DNA from: a virus
Taxonomy: Duplodnaviria; Heunggongvirae; Uroviricota; Caudoviricetes
IMG/VR virus record: IMGVR_UViG_2695420792_000006
Span: 1 to 19,663 of that record
DNA length: 19,663 bases
Strand: one strand, 5' to 3'
Position numbers and translations under genes: made by a program. Positions 3,252-17,724 of the stretch are shown piece after piece. The notes under the pieces are model-generated. The model had not been told where the DNA came from, did not search any database, and saw only the letters and a list, made by a program, of their open reading frames with translations. Position 1 is the first letter of the stretch; each line of letters begins with the position of its first letter.

Positions 3252-3644
3252 TCAGAATGGTTTTGTTGCCATCAGTTCGTAATATCCGGCGCTCCATGTG
3301 TCATATTTTCTGAACCATTTTTCTGTATACTGTTTCCTGGCGATGAGTCTGCGCAGTCGTCTGATTGTTCGCTGGTGTGCGCGGGTATACTCTGTGGTTG
3401 ATTCTCCACGTTTCCATATCTCATTCCCGTTGAAGATAAAACGCTTGTCAGGATAGCGTTGCCGGAATCCTGAACGTTCAAAAGCGCGGGTGGTCATAAA
3501 GAATGCCAGGTAACGAATTGCCGTTTTTCGGGTGAGGCATTTTTTTGTTCTTCCGTGGCGTGTTACAAAAAATAACGGGCCGACGGGTGTATCATGTTTC
3601 TGTAATGCCTGGTCAATGGCGCTGGCGGTGCGGTTGTCGATCAT
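3252..3644 (-). CDS. Hypothetical basic protein (Arg/Lys-rich, possible nucleic-acid binding)
   Basis: 130-aa ORF in the leftward early operon, rich in basic residues (RTIRRLRRLIARKQY). No family recognised. Confidence 0.5.
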   Translation of the reverse strand: MIDNRTASAIDQALQKHDTPVGPLFFVTRHGRTKKCLTRKTAIRYLAFFMTTRAFERSGFRQRYPDKRFIFNGNEIWKRGESTTEYTRAHQRTIRRLRRLIARKQYTEKWFRKYDTWSAGYYELMATKPF

Positions 3645-3830
3645 TTCTTTATTTCTCCCGAATAACGTTCATGACTCATTACTTCCCAGTTCCGGCCGTC
3701 GCCTTTCGATAACAGCCGCCAGCAACGGTTAACCTTCAGACTGAGATATCCGGTGCGCTGTATCCGATGCGGAAATATCCGTCGGCATCGGTACAACAAC
3801 AGGACCTGCAATGCCTGCCGGTGGATCCGC

Positions 3831-4046
3831 TCAGGAATGCGTGTTGCTGTTAATGCCACCGGTTTCCTCCTGAGCAGGTGCTGTTATCTGATACCCCGCT
3901 CTTTCTGCCAGCCGTATGAATGTATCCATGCTGGCAATCAGCTCGCCATCGCGGACTTTGCAGACACCTGTGACTTGGCCATTTTCAATTGTCATAACGA
4001 TCTGCACTTTTTCGCGCACAACAGATACAGGGGATAAATTAGCCAT
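3831..4046 (-). CDS. Hypothetical small protein
   Basis: 71-aa ORF in the same orientation as the early-left operon, with coding-like composition. No family recognised. Confidence 0.45.
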   Translation of the reverse strand: MANLSPVSVVREKVQIVMTIENGQVTGVCKVRDGELIASMDTFIRLAERAGYQITAPAQEETGGINSNTHS

Positions 4047-4171: not shown

Positions 4172-4405
4172 CTAGTATGCAGTGTGGATTTCGGTTTCAC
4201 CCTCCACCCGGCCCAATTCACCACGGGTAATACCTTCGAAGCGTAACAGCAACTGGTTTATAAACTGTTCAGTTATTTCTATAGTCGCAATGTTCCCATC
4301 CGGAAGGTCAACAATAAGCAGATTACCACCTGTTTTACGTTTTATTCGATGGAGTGCCGCAACAGCTATACGGCGACGATATGTATTAATGGGTTCATAT
4401 GCCAT
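4172..4405 (-). CDS. Hypothetical small protein
   Basis: 77-aa ORF in the early-left operon. No family recognised. Confidence 0.45.
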   Translation of the reverse strand: MAYEPINTYRRRIAVAALHRIKRKTGGNLLIVDLPDGNIATIEITEQFINQLLLRFEGITRGELGRVEGETEIHTAY

Positions 4406-4604
4406 TTGTTATTTCCCGTATGCTTTACGCAGAAATAAGCAGGCAATATGCATGTAATTTTCACCGTGTTGTGCAATAAGACAGGCTGTTTTGTGTGATG
4501 TCTTATGTTTTATAAAAGTCATAATAAAGGCTCCAGTGGATTAAGTGTGTGATAATCCCCGGCGATTAAGCCGTAATATATTGTTCAGCGATAATATGTT
4601 TTAT

Positions 4605-4805
4605 TTAACTGGATAGTTCTTTTTCAGTTGCTGCTTCAGCATAGCAACGTGCAAATTCAAGAACTTCATCACCTGTTCTTTTTATTGCATCGTTGTCTGA
4701 CATTTGTAATACGACAACTGCGCATAATAAATCATGGATATTGTTTGCAAAGGAATCCGGTGCCAGGCATAAGCCTTCATACTTATCATGGATATTGCCA
4801 GTCAT
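4605..4805 (-). CDS. Hypothetical small protein (66 aa)
   Basis: Internal ATG (MTGNIHDKYEG...) with an AAGGAG Shine-Dalgarno, 5 nt downstream of the stop of the tandem-HTH gene. The longer track ORF (to 4847) would overlap that gene. Confidence 0.45.
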   Translation of the reverse strand: MTGNIHDKYEGLCLAPDSFANNIHDLLCAVVVLQMSDNDAIKRTGDEVLEFARCYAEAATEKELSS

Positions 4806-12193: not shown

Positions 12194-13189
12194 GTGACCG
12201 TGAGAGCATTGTTGACTCCTGAAATTGCCCCGCGAATGGGGATTGTATTGTTCAGACCCGGTTCAGAGCTGATGCCCCTGTTTATGCAGGGGCGTGTCCT
12301 GCTGGAGCCTGAGCCGGAACGTTATTCATCTTTCGCCAGTGGTGCCGTTCCGGCGGCATCACAACCGCTGGCGGATGATCCTGCCGTTCGGGCCGTGTTC
12401 CGCAATGAGGCAGTGATCCGTCGTGCTGGTGGCGTGGAATGTCTTGAAAGCTGGTTACTTCGTGAAAAAGGCTGCCAGTGGCTTCATTCCGACTGGCACA
12501 GCGAGAACATGACCACAATGCGACACGCGCCGGGCGCAATCCGTCTGTGCTGGCACTGCGATAACCAGCTGCGCGATCAGTTCACGGAACGGCTGGAATC
12601 AATGGCAACGGATAACTGTGCCCGCTGGGTGTTGTCTGTTGTGCGTCGGGATCTCGGTTTTGATGACAGTCACGTTGTGACAATGCCGGAACTGTGCTGG
12701 TGGCTGGTTCGTAATAATCTGGCGGATGCCTTACCGGAAAGCGCAGCCCGTAAGGCACTGAGATTACCGAATCCTGTTGTGCCGTCTGTCACCCGGGAAA
12801 GTGACCTTGTGCCTTCGGTTCCTGCCACCAGCATCATCCAGGATAAGGCGAAAAAGGTGCTGGCGCTGAAAGTGGATCCGGAGTCGCCGGAGTCTTTTAT
12901 GTTACGCCCAAAACGTCGCCGCTGGGTTAATGAAAAGTACACGCGCTGGGTTAAGACACAGCCGTGCGCATGTTGTGGAAAGCCTGCTGATGATCCCCAC
13001 CACCTGATAGGCCACGGTCAGGGGGGAATGGGTACAAAAGCGCATGACCTCTTTGTGTTGCCTTTGTGCAGAAAGCATCACGACGAGCTGCATGCGGATA
13101 CCGTGGCATTTGAAGAGAAGTATGGCTCCCAGCTGGAGCTGATATTTCGTTTTATCGATCGCGCGCTGGCAACTGGCGTGCTGGCCTGA
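12194..13189 (+). CDS. DUF968-like phage protein with C-terminal HNH-like zinc-finger motif
   Basis: C-terminus CACCGKPADDPHHLIGHGQGGMGTKAHDLFVLPLCRKHHDELH matches an HNH-type CxxC...HH...CxxxHH pattern. Lies immediately upstream of Q, as ydfU-like genes do in E. coli cryptic prophages (recollection). Track start is GTG; the true start is unresolved. Confidence 0.55.
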   Translation: MTVRALLTPEIAPRMGIVLFRPGSELMPLFMQGRVLLEPEPERYSSFASGAVPAASQPLADDPAVRAVFRNEAVIRRAGGVECLESWLLREKGCQWLHSDWHSENMTTMRHAPGAIRLCWHCDNQLRDQFTERLESMATDNCARWVLSVVRRDLGFDDSHVVTMPELCWWLVRNNLADALPESAARKALRLPNPVVPSVTRESDLVPSVPATSIIQDKAKKVLALKVDPESPESFMLRPKRRRWVNEKYTRWVKTQPCACCGKPADDPHHLIGHGQGGMGTKAHDLFVLPLCRKHHDELHADTVAFEEKYGSQLELIFRFIDRALATGVLA

Positions 13190-13206
13190 TTTTGTGGATA
13201 AAGTTT

Positions 13207-13572
13207 ATGCGTGATATTCAGATGGTTCTGGATCGTTGGGGTGCATGGGCGGCGAGTGATAGTTCTGGGGTAGACTATTCGCCTATAGCTGCTGGGTTTA
13301 AAGGGCTTCTTCCCTATACAAGCAAAACACGTCAGGCTTGTTCAGATAGTGATGCATTAATTATTGAAGGTTGTCTTGCTCGTCTAAAGCAAAAAAGACC
13401 TGAAGAACACTCGCTTCTTGTTGCCCATTACCTATACGGTATCTCTAAAAGAAAGCTCGCCAAAGCTCGTAAAAAGGATGAGAAACTAATACGCATTGAG
13501 ATACAGATGGCTGAGGGTTTTGTTGAAGGCTGTCTCTCAATGCTTGATCTTTGTCTGGAAATGGACCAATAG
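13207..13572 (+). CDS. Late-gene antiterminator Q (QuuD/phage 21-type Q family)
   Basis: MRDIQMVLDRWGAWAA...GFKGLLP...EGCLARLK...LEMD closely resembles the roughly 125-aa Q antiterminators of E. coli lambdoid prophages as I recall them. ATG at 13207 preferred over the TTG track start. Confidence 0.8.
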   Translation: MRDIQMVLDRWGAWAASDSSGVDYSPIAAGFKGLLPYTSKTRQACSDSDALIIEGCLARLKQKRPEEHSLLVAHYLYGISKRKLAKARKKDEKLIRIEIQMAEGFVEGCLSMLDLCLEMDQ

Positions 13573-13583
13573 ACTACCAGAAT

Positions 13584-13620
13584 AGAAACTGCCGCTCAGC
13601 TTTGCGGATCGGCAGTTTCT
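13584..13620. repeat. Perfect 11-bp inverted repeat (AGAAACTGCCG / CGGCAGTTTCT, 15-nt loop) between convergent genes
   Basis: Lies between the Q stop and the stop of the minus-strand 140-aa gene, whose 3' end it overlaps. No U-tract on either side. Confidence 0.5.
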
Positions 13621-14018
13621 GATGGTGTAATGTTACGCGCAGATGTTTCGAGTATAGATTCCCTTCCGATTGATACCAAAATTTCGATTGTTCTTGCTTT
13701 AGCCTGCATCAATGTTGATTTTATTTCAGGACTTAAGTGGTCAGATCGTAACTGCTTCTCAATCTCAGCCAAATCACGCTTGCATTTTGCTCTTTTGGCT
13801 GCGTCCTCTGGAGATTCGAAACCATGCCTCGAAATAAACCAATTCATGACGTAAGTTAAAGTTGCCGCAACACCCGGTACCAATGCGTAGGCTACAGTTC
13901 GCCACACGCTATTAGGGTCGGTTAAAATCGCGCTAACAAGAACACTTAGAATTGCTCCCCAGCCACCAGTTGAAAGGGTAGCTTTTCCTGTACTTAGACC
14001 TTTAGTTTGAGAATTCAT
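13596..14018 (-). CDS. Cassette gene 3: 2-TM membrane protein with cytoplasmic coiled-coil tail
   Basis: 140 aa. Hydrophobic helices WGAILSVLVSAIL and VAYALVPGVAATLTYVMNWFI, followed by a charged C-terminal region. Start overlaps the stop of the upstream gene. Confidence 0.6.
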   Translation of the reverse strand: MNSQTKGLSTGKATLSTGGWGAILSVLVSAILTDPNSVWRTVAYALVPGVAATLTYVMNWFISRHGFESPEDAAKRAKCKRDLAEIEKQLRSDHLSPEIKSTLMQAKARTIEILVSIGRESILETSARNITPSETADPQS

Positions 14019-14284
14019 TTTCGTTTTGAATTCTCCGCAATTGCCTCTTCAATGAGGGTTGTTAGCATTTTTCCCTTTTTACTTGGAACTTTTATTACTA
14101 GCGTCTTAGTCACTCCGGATTCTTCATCGTGATATCGGAATTCGAAGACTTTTGTAGGGAATAGTCGACGCCAAAGCAAGGCTGACGCTGAATAGCAAAA
14201 ACGACTAAAGGCAGGGATGATCATTATCACCCCAATCCAGAAGATCAGTTGTGCTATCTGCATGTTCAGTGTCACTTTTGTCAA
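14015..14284 (-). CDS. Cassette gene 2: small membrane protein (1-2 TM)
   Basis: 89 aa. Hydrophobic N-terminus (IAQLIFWIGVIMIIPAF) and a Lys-rich soluble tail. 4-nt overlaps with both neighbouring genes. Confidence 0.55.
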   Translation of the reverse strand: MTKVTLNMQIAQLIFWIGVIMIIPAFSRFCYSASALLWRRLFPTKVFEFRYHDEESGVTKTLVIKVPSKKGKMLTTLIEEAIAENSKRK

Positions 14285-15150
14285 GCCTCAGCAGGGCGTT
14301 TTCGTTTTACTTTGGTTATAGCATACTTGGTTGTGGCATTTCGCGCAGTGAAAGTTTTTATAGTTTTTAGCTCAACAACAAACAAATCTTCTTTTGTAAA
14401 ACTGATGATTCCATTTTGAACTTGGTGTATAAACAACTGATCTTCAAATGTAACAGCATGCTCCTCGCCTAAATAATCGATTCTCCAACCCTTTGTACCC
14501 TCGAAGTTGATCTGTACGAATCTAACATTGACTTCTTCTACAGACTCTTCTTTTTCAAGTAGTGTACCTCTAGGCAGCGGTTTGATCTCTTCAGTTTCAC
14601 TTCCTTCAAGACGAACGACTTCTTCGCCTTCATCATTTAGCACCTTAAATACTGCACCTTGTTTGCCGTCTAATGGTGCACGAACTACATTCACAAGGGC
14701 ATCACGGACTTCAGGATCTGTTACTAACTTAGCCACTGAGTCATGGCAAACAATTTCTTCCCCTTCAAGTTCAAGAACAGATTCTTCTGTTCCTGCCCGT
14801 TTTGTTACCGAAATTACTTTCTTGCTGCCCAGTTGGCGGATTAGTGATAATGCTGGAGCTCCAATAGCAGCCCCGGCTATCCCTGTTAGGCCAATCACTT
14901 TTGCGACGTCGACGGCATGAGGAACAAGCTCCATCATCGTATAGGATACGCCGAGTGATCCCGCTTCTGCTGGATTAGTAACCATTAACTTAACGGTTTG
15001 TTGACCGTCATTAAGTCTTTTATCAGCTGCTGATATTAAATCTGCCATCGAACCTATGGAGATGCTTAATGTTTTGGCATCAATTTTATGCTGTGCTAAT
15101 TCGTTATCCTCTGCATCGTAGAAGATCTGAAAAGAAGTTGTTTTAGTCAC
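14281..15150 (-). CDS. Cassette gene 1: 289-aa hypothetical protein with a central hydrophobic/Gly-Ala segment and acidic stretches
   Basis: No family recognised. Central hydrophobic segment VAKVIGLTGIAGAAIGAPALSLI and acidic runs (LELEGEEIV, EGSETEE). Track start is GTG with a weak Shine-Dalgarno, so the start is uncertain. Locally AT-rich. Confidence 0.55.
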   Translation of the reverse strand: MTKTTSFQIFYDAEDNELAQHKIDAKTLSISIGSMADLISAADKRLNDGQQTVKLMVTNPAEAGSLGVSYTMMELVPHAVDVAKVIGLTGIAGAAIGAPALSLIRQLGSKKVISVTKRAGTEESVLELEGEEIVCHDSVAKLVTDPEVRDALVNVVRAPLDGKQGAVFKVLNDEGEEVVRLEGSETEEIKPLPRGTLLEKEESVEEVNVRFVQINFEGTKGWRIDYLGEEHAVTFEDQLFIHQVQNGIISFTKEDLFVVELKTIKTFTARNATTKYAITKVKRKRPAEA

Positions 15151-15394
15151 TCTTTGCTCGCTATGTCTTGACTTTTTTCCATAAAATACCTTTTTTGGGT
15201 ATAAAAAACATTATCGCGGTCCGCAAAAATTGCGTTACTGTGTTAAGAGTGGTTACTTCGCCACACAGCTTAAACCCGCCGTCGAGCGGTTTTTTTGTAC
15301 CTGTAAACCTGGTGCAGTACAGTAAACACGCTGGTGGCGGTGAATACCTGTCTTTCAGCTTGCTGGCTTTTTCGACAAGAGTTATTGGTATGTC

Positions 15395-15622
15395 ATGTCA
15401 ACCAGAAGGGAAAAAGACATGCTAAAACAGCAAGATATGACAGAAACCGCCGCCGCAGTCCTTCATTTCTTACCTGCTGACAAGTGGGTAACGCCACGCA
15501 TGATGACGAGAACTACAGGAGTAAGCGAAGCCCGGTGCCAGTTAATACTGACTCAGTTAGTTCTGGCGGGTCTGGCGAAGGATAACGGCGGGTACGGGAA
15601 TAAATTCAGACGCTGCCAGTAA
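15395..15622 (+). CDS. Small hypothetical protein, possibly winged-helix DNA-binding (alternative start ATG 15419)
   Basis: 75-aa ORF upstream of the methyltransferase. The internal ATG at 15419 has an AGAAGGGA Shine-Dalgarno. Helix-rich segment VSEARCQLILTQLVLAGLAKDNGG. Confidence 0.4.
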   Translation: MSTRREKDMLKQQDMTETAAAVLHFLPADKWVTPRMMTRTTGVSEARCQLILTQLVLAGLAKDNGGYGNKFRRCQ

Positions 15623-15772
15623 TGGCGGTTTCCTGCTGTGAAAATGGGCGGCTGGTGGGTGTTGGTAGCACCTGCCAGCCATTCGCTCATGCTTACTGGT
15701 CACAAGCGAACCATGGCCCACTGCTTTAGCGCAAAAGCAGAGTGAGCCTACCAGAGTTACGCTTACTGATCC

Positions 15773-16830
15773 ATGAAAAATACTGTAAAAATAAACAGTG
15801 TTGATTTAATCAACGCTGATTGCCTGCATTTTATTCAGTCCCTGCCTGATGATTCCATTGACCTGATTGTTACCGATCCGCCGTACTTCAAGGTGAAACC
15901 CAACGGCTGGGACAATCAGTGGAAAGGGGACGAAGATTACCTTAAGTGGCTGGACCACTGTCTTGCGCAGTTCTGGCGGGTGCTGAAACCTGCAGGAAGT
16001 CTATACCTGTTCTGTGGGCATCGCCTGGCATCTGACACCGAAATCATGATGCGTGAGCGGTTTAACGTGCTGAACCATATCATCTGGGCAAAGCCGTCCG
16101 GACGCTGGAACGGGTGTAACAAGGAAAGCCTGCGGGCGCATTTTCCGGCCACAGAGCGCATTCTGTTCGCGGAACATTATCAGGGGCCGTATCGCCCGAA
16201 AGATGATGGCTGTGAGGCGAAGGGCAGGGCACTGAAACAGCATGTGATGGCCCCGCTGATTGCTTACTTTCGTGATGCGCGCGCTGCCCTGGGGATAACG
16301 GCAAAACAGATTGCAGATGCCACAGGAAAGAAAAACATGGTGTCGCACTGGTTCAGTGCCAGTCAGTGGCAGCTGCCGAACGAAAGCGATTATCTGAAAT
16401 TACAGGCCCTGTTTGCCCGGGTGGCAGAAGAGAAGCATCAGCGCGGTGAACTGGAATGGCCCCACCACCAGCTGGTGGATACGTATACGTCACTGAACCG
16501 GCAGTATGTGGAGCTGCAGAGTGAATATAAGCATCTGCGGCGGTATTTTGGTGTGACGGCGCAGGTGCCGTACACGGATGTGTGGACATATAAACCGGTG
16601 CAGTTCTATCCCGGGAAACATCCGTGCGAAAAACCGGCAGAAATGCTGCAGCAGATAATCAGCGCAAGCAGTCGTCCGGGTGACCTGGTTGCAGATTTTT
16701 TATGGGCTCAGGTTCAATGGTAAAAGCGGCACTGGCGCTCGGGCGTCGTGCGATTGGCGTTGAACTGGAGGCCGGACGTTTTGAGCAGACAGTCAGGGAA
16801 GTTCAGGATTTCATCGTTCGAAACGGATGA
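15773..16830 (+). pseudogene. DNA methyltransferase (N6-adenine/N4-cytosine class, DPPY motif) interrupted by a -1 frameshift in a T6 run
   Basis: Motif IV DPPY (IVTDPPYF). The reading frame stops at 16723 (ADFLWAQVQW*). Adding one T to the run at 16696-16701 would read ADFFMGSGSMVKAALALGRRAIGVELEAGRFEQTVREVQDFIVRNG*, restoring the FxGxG SAM-binding motif and ending at 16830. Confidence 0.65.
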
Positions 16831-16870: not shown

Positions 16871-16946
16871 GGCCCTTTAGCTCAGTGGTGAGAGCGAGCG
16901 ACTCATAATCGCCAGGTCGCTGGTTCAAATCCAGCAAGGGCCACCA
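16871..16946 (+). tRNA. tRNA with CAT anticodon, Ile2 (lysidine)-type (ileZ-like); elongator Met not excluded
   Basis: Manual cloverleaf: acceptor GGCCCTT/AAGGGCC, D-arm GCTC-AGTGGTGA-GAGC, anticodon loop CTCATAA, T-loop TTCAAAT, 3' CCA encoded. Resembles E. coli ileX-type sequence as recalled. Confidence 0.8.
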
Positions 16947-17046: not shown

Positions 17047-17123
17047 GCGTTGTTAGCTCAGCCGGACAGAGCAATTGCCTTCTAAGCAATCGGTCAGTGG
17101 TTCGACTCCACTACAACGCGCCA
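17047..17123 (+). tRNA. tRNA-Arg (anticodon TCT, reads AGA)
   Basis: Manual cloverleaf: acceptor GCGTTGT/ACAACGC, anticodon stem ATTGC/GCAAT, loop CTTCTAA, T-loop TTCGACT, CCA encoded. Confidence 0.8.
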
Positions 17124-17160: not shown

Positions 17161-17292
17161 GTATCTGCGCCACGCCCGGCGCATATCAACCACAGAGCCT
17201 TTCGGGGGTGAGCTTACGGAGTGGTCAGTGTGACTTTCTCTGTGGGCAGATCGCTCCCGGGCGTTGGCTCACCCACCCAAAGGAACGTCACG

Positions 17293-17724
17293 ATGTTTGG
17301 AATCTTCAAAAAGAAAACCCGCAGAGCGGCAGCGGAAATTAAAAAGTTTGAGAAACGCGATCTGGCACAGGCGGTGATTAACGCTGCATACCTGGTGGCC
17401 TATGCAGATGGTGAATGCGAGGCATCCGAGAAAGCGAAGATCGAACAGGTCTTACGTAATCAGCCTGCGTTGTCTGCGTTTACCTCGGAAATTAATGCGA
17501 TTAGCGCAACCATTATCGGTCAGCTGGATACGAACTTTAAAATTGGTCGTCGTGCGGCGTTACGTGAGATCGAGGATGTGAAACACGATACGCGTGAAGC
17601 GGAAGATGTGCTGGATGTGGCGGTGGCCATTGCGGAGGCAGACGGCGAAATTGAGCCGGAAGAGCGCAAGGTGCTGGAAGAGATTGCCGGTGTTCTGGGG
17701 CTTCGTCTGGAGAATCACCTGTGA
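17293..17724 (+). CDS. TerB-like (tellurite-resistance TerB family) protein
   Basis: 143 aa. ATG at 17293 with an AAGGA Shine-Dalgarno. Sequence AVINAAYLVAYADGECEASEKAKIEQVL ... DVAVAIAEADGEIEPEERKVLEEIAGVLGL matches the TerB helical repeat pattern as I recall it. Confidence 0.6.
   Translation: MFGIFKKKTRRAAAEIKKFEKRDLAQAVINAAYLVAYADGECEASEKAKIEQVLRNQPALSAFTSEINAISATIIGQLDTNFKIGRRAALREIEDVKHDTREAEDVLDVAVAIAEADGEIEPEERKVLEEIAGVLGLRLENHL

What the first reader, a model, noticed from the sequence alone, without database searches (positions are those of the whole stretch)
13584..15150. AT-rich three-gene antisense cassette (soluble protein + two small membrane proteins) inserted just downstream of Q: candidate undescribed defence or exclusion module
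Directly after the Q antiterminator, where lambdoid phages carry the late promoter and lysis genes, sits a compact operon on the opposite strand. It encodes a 289-aa protein of no recognisable family (14281..15150), an 89-aa membrane protein (14015..14284) and a 140-aa 2-TM protein with a coiled-coil tail (13596..14018), all joined by 4-nt overlaps. The segment is visibly more AT-rich than its flanks (by eye, not computed), which suggests horizontal acquisition. The layout of a cytoplasmic effector or sensor plus small membrane proteins recalls abortive-infection and superinfection-exclusion modules such as lambda RexA/RexB, but I see no sequence similarity to any of them. The Q-proximal position is a known hotspot for prophage cargo.
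Basis: partly seen in the sequence, partly recalled or inferred. Interest (0 to 1): 0.85.

Follow-up and report, generated by a model that had tools for sequence, protein, structure and literature searches.

The report
Three-gene candidate phage-exclusion cassette after Q
A compact three-gene operon (one soluble protein plus two small membrane proteins) sits as foreign cargo between the Q gene and the late promoter of an E. coli prophage; the same trio travels as a unit through many prophages and plasmids, and its large protein is already listed as an untested anti-phage candidate (PADLOC PDC-S42), but its function is still unproven.

Summary
Three co-oriented minus-strand ORFs (289, 86-89 and 140 aa) fill window 13596-15150. 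They lie in a 1.64-kb, 41.9% GC segment inserted between the Q stop codon and the conserved late-promoter/terminator region.

The claim of "no recognisable family" is wrong. The 289-aa protein (A) matches PHROG 3243, PADLOC PDC-S42 (an untested defence candidate) and NCBIfam NF053583 ("LAPAL ... putative phage structural protein").

The new result is that A is almost never alone. In 52 of 53 distinct intact loci, down to about 25% identity, it is followed by a one-TM protein (B) and a two-TM protein with a helical tail (C). RefSeq never annotates B.

The trio occupies at least seven different slots: after Q, after CI repressors, beside integrases, beside lysis genes, in a GmrSD island, and on 30 Pseudomonas megaplasmids. 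That argues against a structural or lysis role.

A has no solved-structure relative. Part of it resembles an OB fold. It shows no homology to RexA/RexB.

My best reading is a lysogen-expressed, membrane-anchored anti-phage module, Rex-like in logic but unrelated in sequence. Confidence is moderate and there is no functional evidence. Interest 0.55.

The parts
14281..15150 (-). Gene A, 289 aa. Soluble or peripheral three-domain protein with a hydrophobic Gly/Ala-rich linker at about residues 80-105 and a C-terminal OB-like beta-barrel.
14015..14284 (-). Gene B. 89 aa from TTG at 14284, or more likely 86 aa from GTG at 14275. N-terminal transmembrane segment plus a cytoplasmic tail of about 45 aa. 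Not annotated in RefSeq.
   Evidence: ORF. KD19 maximum is 2.0 at residues 8-26. Homologous ORFs follow A in 52 of 53 loci. PGAP leaves this stretch empty.
13596..14018 (-). Gene C, 140 aa. Two-TM helical hairpin followed by two charged cytoplasmic helices; the topology resembles a class II holin.
   Evidence: ORF. Hydropathy. AF2 helices at 11-31, 38-65, 70-91 and 97-128. Conserved downstream of B in 52 of 53 loci. All three C-anchored look-ups found A and B upstream.
13583..13620 (.). Strong hairpin between the Q stop codon (13572) and the 3' end of C, which it overlaps. Likely a bidirectional terminator or insulator.
   Evidence: Folding energy -26.7 kcal/mol on the + strand and -24.0 on the - strand, z about -4.9, with 0 of 200 shuffles as stable. 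Also present in Tatumella. It lacks a canonical U-tract, so its function is inferred.
15183..15211 (-). Putative sigma-70 promoter of the operon. The -35 is ATGTTT (15211-15206), the spacer is 17 nt, and the -10 is TATTTT (15188-15183). It lies about 30 nt upstream of the A start codon.
   Evidence: The TG of the -35 and the TA..TT of the -10 are invariant in 8 diverged loci (alignment A11). The match to consensus is weak and the generic scan did not call it. This is inference.
13573..15210 (.). Cassette-specific DNA: the cargo segment that differs between phages sharing this Q type.
   Evidence: Alignments with cdtI, PhiR40_1 and Tatumella. GC is 41.9%. Present in 31 of 5426 complete E. coli genomes, always whole, whereas a query that adds the Q and methylase flanks (13100-15800) matches 4717 genomes.
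15241..15296 (+). Conserved phage backbone just downstream of the cargo slot. Probably the Q-dependent late-transcript leader followed by the tR'-type terminator (stem 15275-15289, T7 15290-15296).
   Evidence: Conserved in window, cdtI, PhiR40_1 and Ayreon, and partly in Tatumella. Terminator-like hit. The equivalent site is annotated as a terminator in phage Ayreon. Assignment to pR' is inferred from lambdoid organisation.
13192..13572 (+). Q antiterminator gene, forming the left flank of the insertion slot.
   Evidence: PF06530, E 1.9e-52.

Best explanation
The segment is a mobile, self-contained three-gene operon (A-B-C) carried as accessory cargo by prophages and plasmids. In this prophage it is inserted antisense between Q and the late promoter.

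Shown:
- The three genes form an almost obligate unit.
- They move between unrelated genomic slots.
- B and C are small membrane proteins with cytoplasmic tails.
- A is a roughly 290-aa protein of conserved length with no enzymatic domain I could recognise, a hydrophobic Gly/Ala-rich linker and an OB-like barrel.

Inferred:
- The operon has its own promoter and a terminator-like hairpin, and so is transcribed independently of the late operon, probably in the lysogen.
- A docks on B and C at the inner membrane.
- A uses the OB-like domain and a conserved N-terminal polar cluster (Y11, D12, H21, D24, S65) to sense a phage-derived nucleic acid or nucleoprotein.
- Sensing triggers the holin-like C, with B, to permeabilise or depolarise the membrane, aborting the infection. 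This is the same logic as lambda RexA/RexB, built from unrelated proteins.
For: - A matches PADLOC PDC-S42 over its full length (E 9e-33). PDCs were selected because a family member is embedded in BREX, DISARM or type I RM systems.
- B and C HMM hits lie directly downstream of A on the same strand in 52 of 53 distinct intact loci, and there are no orphan B or C hits. The trio persists at about 25-35% A identity in Pseudomonas, Xenorhabdus, Halomonas and metagenomes.
- The trio occupies many slots. It lies after Q. It lies directly downstream of CI/S24 repressors on the same strand, which is the rexAB position. It lies next to integrases, including the P2 gpA-int hotspot. It lies between lysis genes and terminase, and in a P22 immI-like region. 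It lies in an AlpA island with GmrSD_C and a PDC-S26-like PD-(D/E)XK protein. It is also on 30 Pseudomonas megaplasmids.
- In this window the layout is moron-like: low GC, a conserved promoter-like motif and a strong hairpin at the 3' end.
- C has a 2-TM hairpin plus a charged helical tail.
Against: - There is no functional data of any kind. PDC-S42 is explicitly untested, and I found no publication on it.
- None of the loci I retrieved shows the trio embedded in a BREX, DISARM or RM system.
- Neighbouring known defence genes appear in only one or two loci.
- Alternative cargoes at the same Q slot are not known defence systems.
- The promoter match is weak (2/6 and 4/6).
- No A homologue exists in 50,697 GenBank phage records, which is unexplained.
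Confidence: 0.45

Rival explanations
1. Non-abortive superinfection exclusion. The membrane-anchored A-B-C complex blocks or captures incoming phage DNA at the inner membrane (like Sie or Imm proteins) without killing the cell.
For: All three proteins are predicted to be at or facing the inner membrane. A has an OB-like domain that could bind DNA. The trio is prophage and plasmid cargo in lysogeny-type positions. This shares all the context evidence of the main explanation.
Against: From my own knowledge, known entry-exclusion proteins are mostly single small membrane or periplasmic proteins. A conserved, translationally coupled three-protein unit with a large cytoplasmic component fits a sensor-effector design better. 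No periplasm-exposed domain is predicted.
Confidence: 0.2
2. An accessory function for the mobile element that is unrelated to phage defence. Examples are a membrane toxin with its regulator (an addiction module), exclusion of conjugative DNA, or an envelope or physiology-modifying lysogenic-conversion function.
For: Carriage on Pseudomonas megaplasmids next to resistance and IS26 regions, as well as in prophages. Few adjacent known defence genes. The holin-like C could be a toxin.
Against: The PDC-S42 assignment rests on embedding in defence systems. The rexAB-like placement behind repressors and the P2 gpA-int hotspot are typical of anti-phage cargo. None of the three proteins shows a toxin-antitoxin family signature.
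Confidence: 0.2
3. A lysis-associated accessory module (holin/antiholin-like regulators of lysis timing) belonging to the late region.
For: The trio is often close to lysis genes. It lies between Q and the holin in Tatumella and Klebsiella, immediately upstream of holin or endolysin on the same strand in L073, L081 and L006, and after the spanin in Pantoea. C has class II holin-like topology. One family member gave a weak PHROG holin hit (E 0.0014).
Against: In the window and its Klebsiella and Tatumella relatives it is antisense to the late operon and lies upstream of the late promoter. Many loci have no lysis genes nearby: repressor-adjacent, integrase-adjacent, megaplasmid and GmrSD-island loci. 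These prophages already have complete holin, endolysin and spanin sets.
Confidence: 0.08
4. A is a virion structural protein, as the NCBIfam name suggests.
For: Only the curated name of NF053583, "LAPAL motif-containing putative phage structural protein", and the prophage location.
Against: The trio is never within head or tail gene order except in an immI-like accessory island. It is antisense to late genes here. It is obligately linked to two inner-membrane proteins. It is present on megaplasmids. It is absent from all 50,697 sequenced phage records. There is no structural similarity to virion proteins in PDB or BFVD.
Confidence: 0.02

Closest known systems
PADLOC PDC-S42 (phage defence candidate, Payne et al. 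2024 bioRxiv 10.1101/2024.01.29.577857)
   Same: Gene A is a full-length member by HMM (PDLC05015, E 9e-33). It is a candidate defence gene found on mobile elements.
   Different: The name "PDC-S42" appears to denote a single-gene candidate; reading "S" as single-gene is my interpretation of the naming convention, not something a tool output states. Here A is almost always the first gene of a three-gene operon with two membrane proteins (52 of 53 loci). The candidate has never been tested.
Lambda RexA/RexB abortive-infection system
   Same: Prophage cargo. A cytoplasmic protein of about 280-290 aa is paired with membrane protein(s). In several prophages the trio sits directly downstream of the CI-type repressor on the same strand, as rexAB does. 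The proposed logic is the same: a sensor activates a membrane effector.
Rst_2TM_1TM_TIR (P2/P4 hotspot system, Rousset et al. 2022, PMC9122126)
   Same: A three-gene prophage/satellite-hotspot system made of a 2-TM protein, a 1-TM protein and a soluble protein. This description is recalled from my own knowledge; the paper only appeared in search listings and was not read. The trio also occurs in P2-like hotspots.
   Different: The soluble component here is not a TIR protein. None of the three proteins hits any PADLOC model other than PDC-S42.
Class II holins / pinholins
   Same: C has a two-TM hairpin followed by a highly charged cytoplasmic tail, and the trio is often near lysis cassettes.
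   Different: C is longer (125-157 aa) with two extra helices. There is no significant holin family match. In this window it is antisense to and outside the late operon, and it also occurs on plasmids.
NCBIfam NF053583 'LAPAL motif-containing putative phage structural protein' / PHROG 3243
   Same: A is a clear member of both.
   Different: Both are purely sequence families with no tested function. The "structural" label conflicts with the genomic contexts found here.

Membership tests
PADLOC PDC-S42 | Full-length match to a PDC-S42 HMM | tested here: met
   PDLC05015, E 8.8e-33, residues 4-287 against profile positions 3-292 of 302.
PADLOC PDC-S42 | Single-gene system (my reading of the "S" class in the name) | tested here: not met
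   A is followed by B and C in 52 of 53 distinct intact loci. The only solo A is L088/L089.
PADLOC PDC-S42 | Embedded within BREX, DISARM or type I RM in at least one instance (the basis on which PDCs were selected) | not tested
   The selection criterion is described. None of the roughly 60 loci retrieved here shows such embedding, but the sample was not designed to find it.
PADLOC PDC-S42 | Confers phage resistance | not testable with these tools
   PDCs are described as "untested phage defence candidates". I found no paper on this one.
NCBIfam NF053583 (LAPAL family) | Score above the curated cutoff | tested here: met
   202.7 bits against a cutoff of 60, over profile positions 1-292 of 292.
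NCBIfam NF053583 (LAPAL family) | Phage structural role, as implied by the name | tested here: not met
   Only context could be tested. The trio lies outside structural modules and is antisense to late genes. It is linked to inner-membrane proteins and occurs on megaplasmids. It is absent from 50,697 phage records.
Lambda RexAB | Homology of the soluble protein to RexA | tested here: not met
Lambda RexAB | Homology of the membrane protein to RexB | tested here: not met
   hhalign of the C-family profile against RexB gives probability 1.2%.
Lambda RexAB | Co-transcribed downstream of the CI repressor in the immunity region | tested here: inconclusive
   Met by position in L005, L067, L080 and L081. 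Not met in this window, where the operon follows Q. Transcription was not tested.
Lambda RexAB | Abortive infection through membrane depolarisation | not testable with these tools
   Requires infection assays.
Holin / lysis cassette | Match to a holin family, or membership of the Q-dependent lysis operon | tested here: not met
   No Pfam or PHROG holin match for the window B or C. Only 1 of 32 family members gave a weak hit (E 0.0014). The operon is antisense to and upstream of the late promoter.
Rst_2TM_1TM_TIR | Match to the system's PADLOC models; TIR effector | tested here: not met
   B and C have no PADLOC hit at E <= 1, and A hits only PDC-S42.

The most novel reading that the evidence does not exclude
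PDC-S42 is really a widespread three-component, membrane-anchored anti-phage system, made of an OB-domain sensor, a 1-TM subunit and a holin-like 2-TM subunit. It would be a sequence-unrelated functional analogue of RexAB, spread across prophages, satellite-type islands and megaplasmids of Gammaproteobacteria. It has been mis-catalogued as a single gene because the middle gene is routinely unannotated.
Probability: 0.4. Interest if true: 0.7.

Novelty: new variant of a known kind. Interest (0 to 1): 0.55.

Why it matters
If the trio protects against phages, it would add a new and fairly common defence family: 1808 50%-identity clusters of A. It has a tractable three-protein architecture and no homology to any characterised system. 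It would also give a second, independent example of the still poorly understood Rex-type design, in which a cytoplasmic sensor drives a small membrane effector.

In practical terms, the work shows that the PADLOC/NCBI single-gene view of this family is incomplete. Anyone who clones "PDC-S42" alone would probably test a non-functional fragment, because gene B is missing from RefSeq annotation.

It also documents a cargo slot between Q and the late promoter in a group of lambdoid phages that includes Stx-phage relatives.

Tried and rejected
- Pfam, NCBIfam, PADLOC and PHROG scans of B and C gave nothing informative. Scans of 32 diverged B/C homologues found only the unknown-function PHROGs 35868 and 36230 plus one weak holin hit.
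- A PDB sequence search with the A profile found nothing below E 0.1. Foldseek against PDB found nothing below 1e-3. BFVD returned only uncharacterised phage proteins. The afdb50 library was unavailable.
- A back-translated locus search with the 98-sequence alignment failed because no stretch was conserved enough. The genome-contig scan gave only 5 loci.
- Literature searches for PDC-S42, the LAPAL motif, WP_021570437 and WP_024241392 found nothing. The DefensePredictor supplements and two hotspot or prophage papers also had nothing on this family.
- I considered whether the hydrophobic linker of A is a transmembrane hairpin and set that aside. Only 42% of 98 family members reach KD19 >= 1.6, and many carry charged residues in the segment.
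- I considered whether cdtI gp53/gp54 at the same slot are divergent homologues. They are not; gp54 is DUF6731.
- P0139's N-terminal extension gave no domain clue.
Full report
**1. What is in the sequence**

The window is a lambdoid prophage of E. coli. Stretches queried from it (13100-15800 and the cassette) are 100% identical to O103:H2 and other STEC-type chromosomes, where the prophage is integrated next to yecN.

Downstream of a DUF968/HNH gene (12194-13189) and Q (13192-13572; PF06530, E 1.9e-52) lie three minus-strand ORFs:
- A, 14281-15150, 289 aa.
- B, 14015-14284, 89 aa from TTG. More likely it is 86 aa from GTG at 14275, which has a GAGG Shine-Dalgarno and matches the Tatumella start.
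- C, 13596-14018, 140 aa.

B and C overlap by ATGA.

The segment 13573-15210 is 41.9% GC against about 52% in both 2-kb flanks. That puts it in the lowest 0.3% of equal-sized windows in this sequence. Q itself is also AT-rich (43%).

**2. The insertion site**

I aligned the flanks with phages that share this Q type but carry other cargo. Those were cdtI (unrelated 313-aa DUF6731 and 147-aa genes), PhiR40_1 (one 148-aa antisense gene), and Tatumella, which carries the same trio.

The unique DNA runs from the Q stop codon to about 15210. Immediately to the right is a conserved backbone element (15241-15296) that ends in a short GC stem followed by T7. The scan calls it terminator-like, and the equivalent site is annotated as a terminator in phage Ayreon. 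By analogy with lambdoid organisation, I read this as the late-transcript leader plus tR'. That is an inference.

The cassette therefore sits between Q and its target promoter and does not replace it. Lysis genes are still present about 8 kb downstream in the identical genome.

A query extended into the Q and methylase flanks (13100-15800) matches 4717 of 5426 complete E. coli genomes, but the cassette is in only 31. In those it is always complete and single-copy. This is a variable cargo slot.

A strong hairpin (13583-13620; -26.7 kcal/mol, z -4.9) separates the convergent Q and C genes.

Upstream of A there is a sigma-70-like motif: -35 ATGTTT (15211-15206), 17 nt, -10 TATTTT (15188-15183). 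Its key positions are invariant in eight diverged loci. The match to consensus is weak, so the promoter is only suggested.

**3. Protein A is not family-less**

A matches three families:
- PHROG 3243, function unknown (E 6e-61).
- PADLOC PDC-S42 (E 9e-33, full length).
- NCBIfam NF053583, "LAPAL motif-containing putative phage structural protein" (203 bits against a cutoff of 60).

It has no Pfam domain.

PDCs are 145 explicitly untested candidates. They were chosen because a member was embedded in a BREX, DISARM or type I RM system.

I found no paper on PDC-S42, the LAPAL family or the RefSeq accessions.

An exhaustive profile search found 1808 50%-identity clusters (653 at E <= 1e-10). Nearly all of the 150 best hits listed are 280-310 aa, which indicates a fixed architecture without domain fusions.

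**4. The trio is the unit**

A-anchored loci came from genomes, IMG/VR and assemblies. I searched them with HMMs for A, B and C.

Of 60 distinct A ORFs, 53 were intact with enough downstream DNA. Of those, 52 have both B and C immediately downstream on the same strand. No B or C occurs without A.

This holds down to about 25-35% identity of A:
- Pseudomonas: 302 + 77 + 125 aa.
- Xenorhabdus: 307 + 84 + 157 aa.
- Metagenomic members.

The reverse test, anchored on C homologues, again found A and B upstream in Halomonas, Pantoea and Providencia.

The one exception is a distant solo A (L088/L089). It lies beside a stand-alone 117-aa copy of A's C-terminal domain.

PGAP never annotates B in any of the 31 E. 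coli genomes. This probably explains why the family is catalogued as a single gene.

The loci are not independent samples. They were retrieved by similarity and many are related, so the 52/53 figure shows linkage but not how often it arose.

**5. Where the trio travels**

- Antisense between Q and the lysis genes: E. coli, Tatumella, Klebsiella.
- Directly downstream of CI/S24 repressors on the same strand, the position of rexAB in lambda: L005, L067, L080, L081.
- Next to integrases, including the gpA-int end of a P2-like Halomonas prophage.
- Between a DNA methylase and holin/endolysin, in the sense orientation: L073, L006.
- Between the lysis cassette and terminase in Pantoea.
- In a P22 immI-like Arc/ORF6N island in Providencia.
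- In an AlpA-type island beside GmrSD_C and a PDC-S26-like PD-(D/E)XK protein.
- On 30 Pseudomonas megaplasmids, outside any prophage, plus two about 4-Mb Proteus mirabilis records in the plasmid collection whose context I did not examine.

This is how portable accessory cargo behaves. It argues strongly against a virion-structural role and against a dedicated lysis role, even though lysis genes are often nearby.

Neither the window A nor a Pseudomonas member has any tblastn match in 50,697 GenBank phage records. I cannot explain this.

**6. What the proteins look like**

*Protein A.* The AF2 model is confident (pLDDT 82, pTM 0.73). It shows three parts:
- An N-terminal alpha/beta domain (residues 1-75).
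- A low-confidence hydrophobic Gly/Ala-rich linker (about 80-105, the "LAPAL" region).
- Two beta-rich domains.

No solved structure resembles the whole protein.

Residues 198-285 have the element order beta-beta-beta-alpha-beta-beta. From that I assign the OB-like barrel to the C-terminal domain. This is an inference.

The linker is hydrophobic enough for a TM call in only 42% of family members. I therefore treat A as soluble or peripheral, with the linker as a possible contact surface for a partner or the membrane.

Near-invariant residues cluster in two places:
- The N-terminal domain: Y11, D12, H21, D24, G64, S65.
- The barrel: G221, W222, D237, F240.

*Protein B.* It has one N-terminal hydrophobic segment and a tail of about 45 aa that starts with a positive patch.

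*Protein C.* It has two moderately hydrophobic helices with a short loop, followed by two charged helices. This resembles a class II holin in topology.

The bulk of A and the B and C tails are therefore all predicted to face the cytoplasm.

**7. Mechanism**

The best-supported reading is a membrane-anchored, three-component module that benefits the carrying element by excluding other phages. A would act as the sensor or adaptor, and B and C as the membrane effector. The logic is Rex-like.

Shown: the linkage of the three genes, their mobility, their predicted topologies and the PDC-S42 membership.

Inferred: expression in the lysogen, complex formation, the nature of the trigger, and depolarisation.

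Profile comparisons exclude homology to RexA (0.2%) and RexB (1.2%).

Rival readings are listed with their tests:
- Non-abortive entry exclusion.
- A non-defence function for the mobile element, such as addiction or a membrane toxin.
- A lysis accessory.
- A virion protein.

The evidence for defence is contextual and moderate. Known defence neighbours are rare in my sample, and the other cargoes at the same Q slot are not known systems.

**8. Verdict**

The family is already catalogued as an untested candidate, so the cassette is not "undescribed". Its obligate three-gene nature, the unannotated middle gene, the breadth of its carriers and the lack of any characterised relative make it a worthwhile experimental target.

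Interest is 0.55. I rate it a new variant of a known kind: prophage/MGE exclusion modules that pair a soluble sensor with membrane effectors.

Noticed in passing
window 14015-14284 (-): Gene B is not annotated by PGAP in any of the 31 complete E. coli genomes that carry the cassette; only A and C are called. It is nevertheless conserved downstream of A in 52 of 53 diverged loci.
   Followed up: yes
window 13573-15210; L002 3494-4882; L009 2058-2504: The slot between Q and the conserved late leader holds unrelated antisense cargo in other phages with the same Q type. cdtI has a 313-aa DUF6731 protein plus a 147-aa protein, and PhiR40_1 has a 148-aa protein. None matches a PADLOC model.
   Followed up: partly
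window 15211-15270 (+): Backbone element conserved across phages with this Q type: CGCGGTCCGCA, then TGTTAAGAGTGGTTACTTCGCCACA, followed by a short stem and T7. It is probably the Q-binding, pause and leader region of the late promoter. The exact promoter hexamers could not be assigned.
   Followed up: partly
window 15773-16723 (+): The N6/N4 DNA methyltransferase ORF is truncated. The identical region is annotated as a frameshifted pseudogene of 1058 nt in NZ_AP038980, whereas cdtI and PhiR40_1 have intact 1053-nt genes.
   Followed up: no
window 16871-16946 and 17047-17123 (+): tRNA genes with anticodons CAT (PGAP calls it tRNA-Ile) and TCT (Arg). PGAP places a third "tRNA-OTHER" between them that ARAGORN did not call. 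From my own knowledge this resembles the tRNA cluster downstream of Q in Stx-type phages.
   Followed up: partly
window 17221-17724 (+): TerB-family (tellurite-resistance-like) moron gene (PF05099, E 7e-16; PHROG 632). PGAP annotates a DUF3927 gene after it in the identical genome region.
   Followed up: no
window 15395-15622 (+): A small 75-aa protein (PHROG 331, function unknown, with weak MarR-type and Ren-like exclusion-family hits) is the first gene after the putative late terminator. It is conserved in all phages with this backbone.
   Followed up: no
window 3641-3859 (-) and 4251-4750: PGAP annotates a ParE-family toxin-like gene in the early-left region. A second AT-rich patch (37% GC) lies at 4251-4750. 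These may be further cargo.
   Followed up: no
L088 7583-7936 (-) and L089: A stand-alone 117-aa protein homologous to the C-terminal OB-like domain of A (E 7e-7) lies convergent to the only solo A gene found. The locus is in a lambdoid immunity region next to an S24 repressor.
   Followed up: partly
L098 8977-10553 (Pseudomonas plasmid pBM413) and 29 related megaplasmids: The same A-B-C trio (308 + 84 + 139 aa) is carried on 370-460 kb Pseudomonas megaplasmids, beside an IS26/IS6100 resistance region and outside any prophage.
   Followed up: partly
phages collection: No tblastn match to A-family proteins in 50,697 GenBank phage records, even though 68 IMG/VR viral contigs and many prophages carry the family.
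   Followed up: partly
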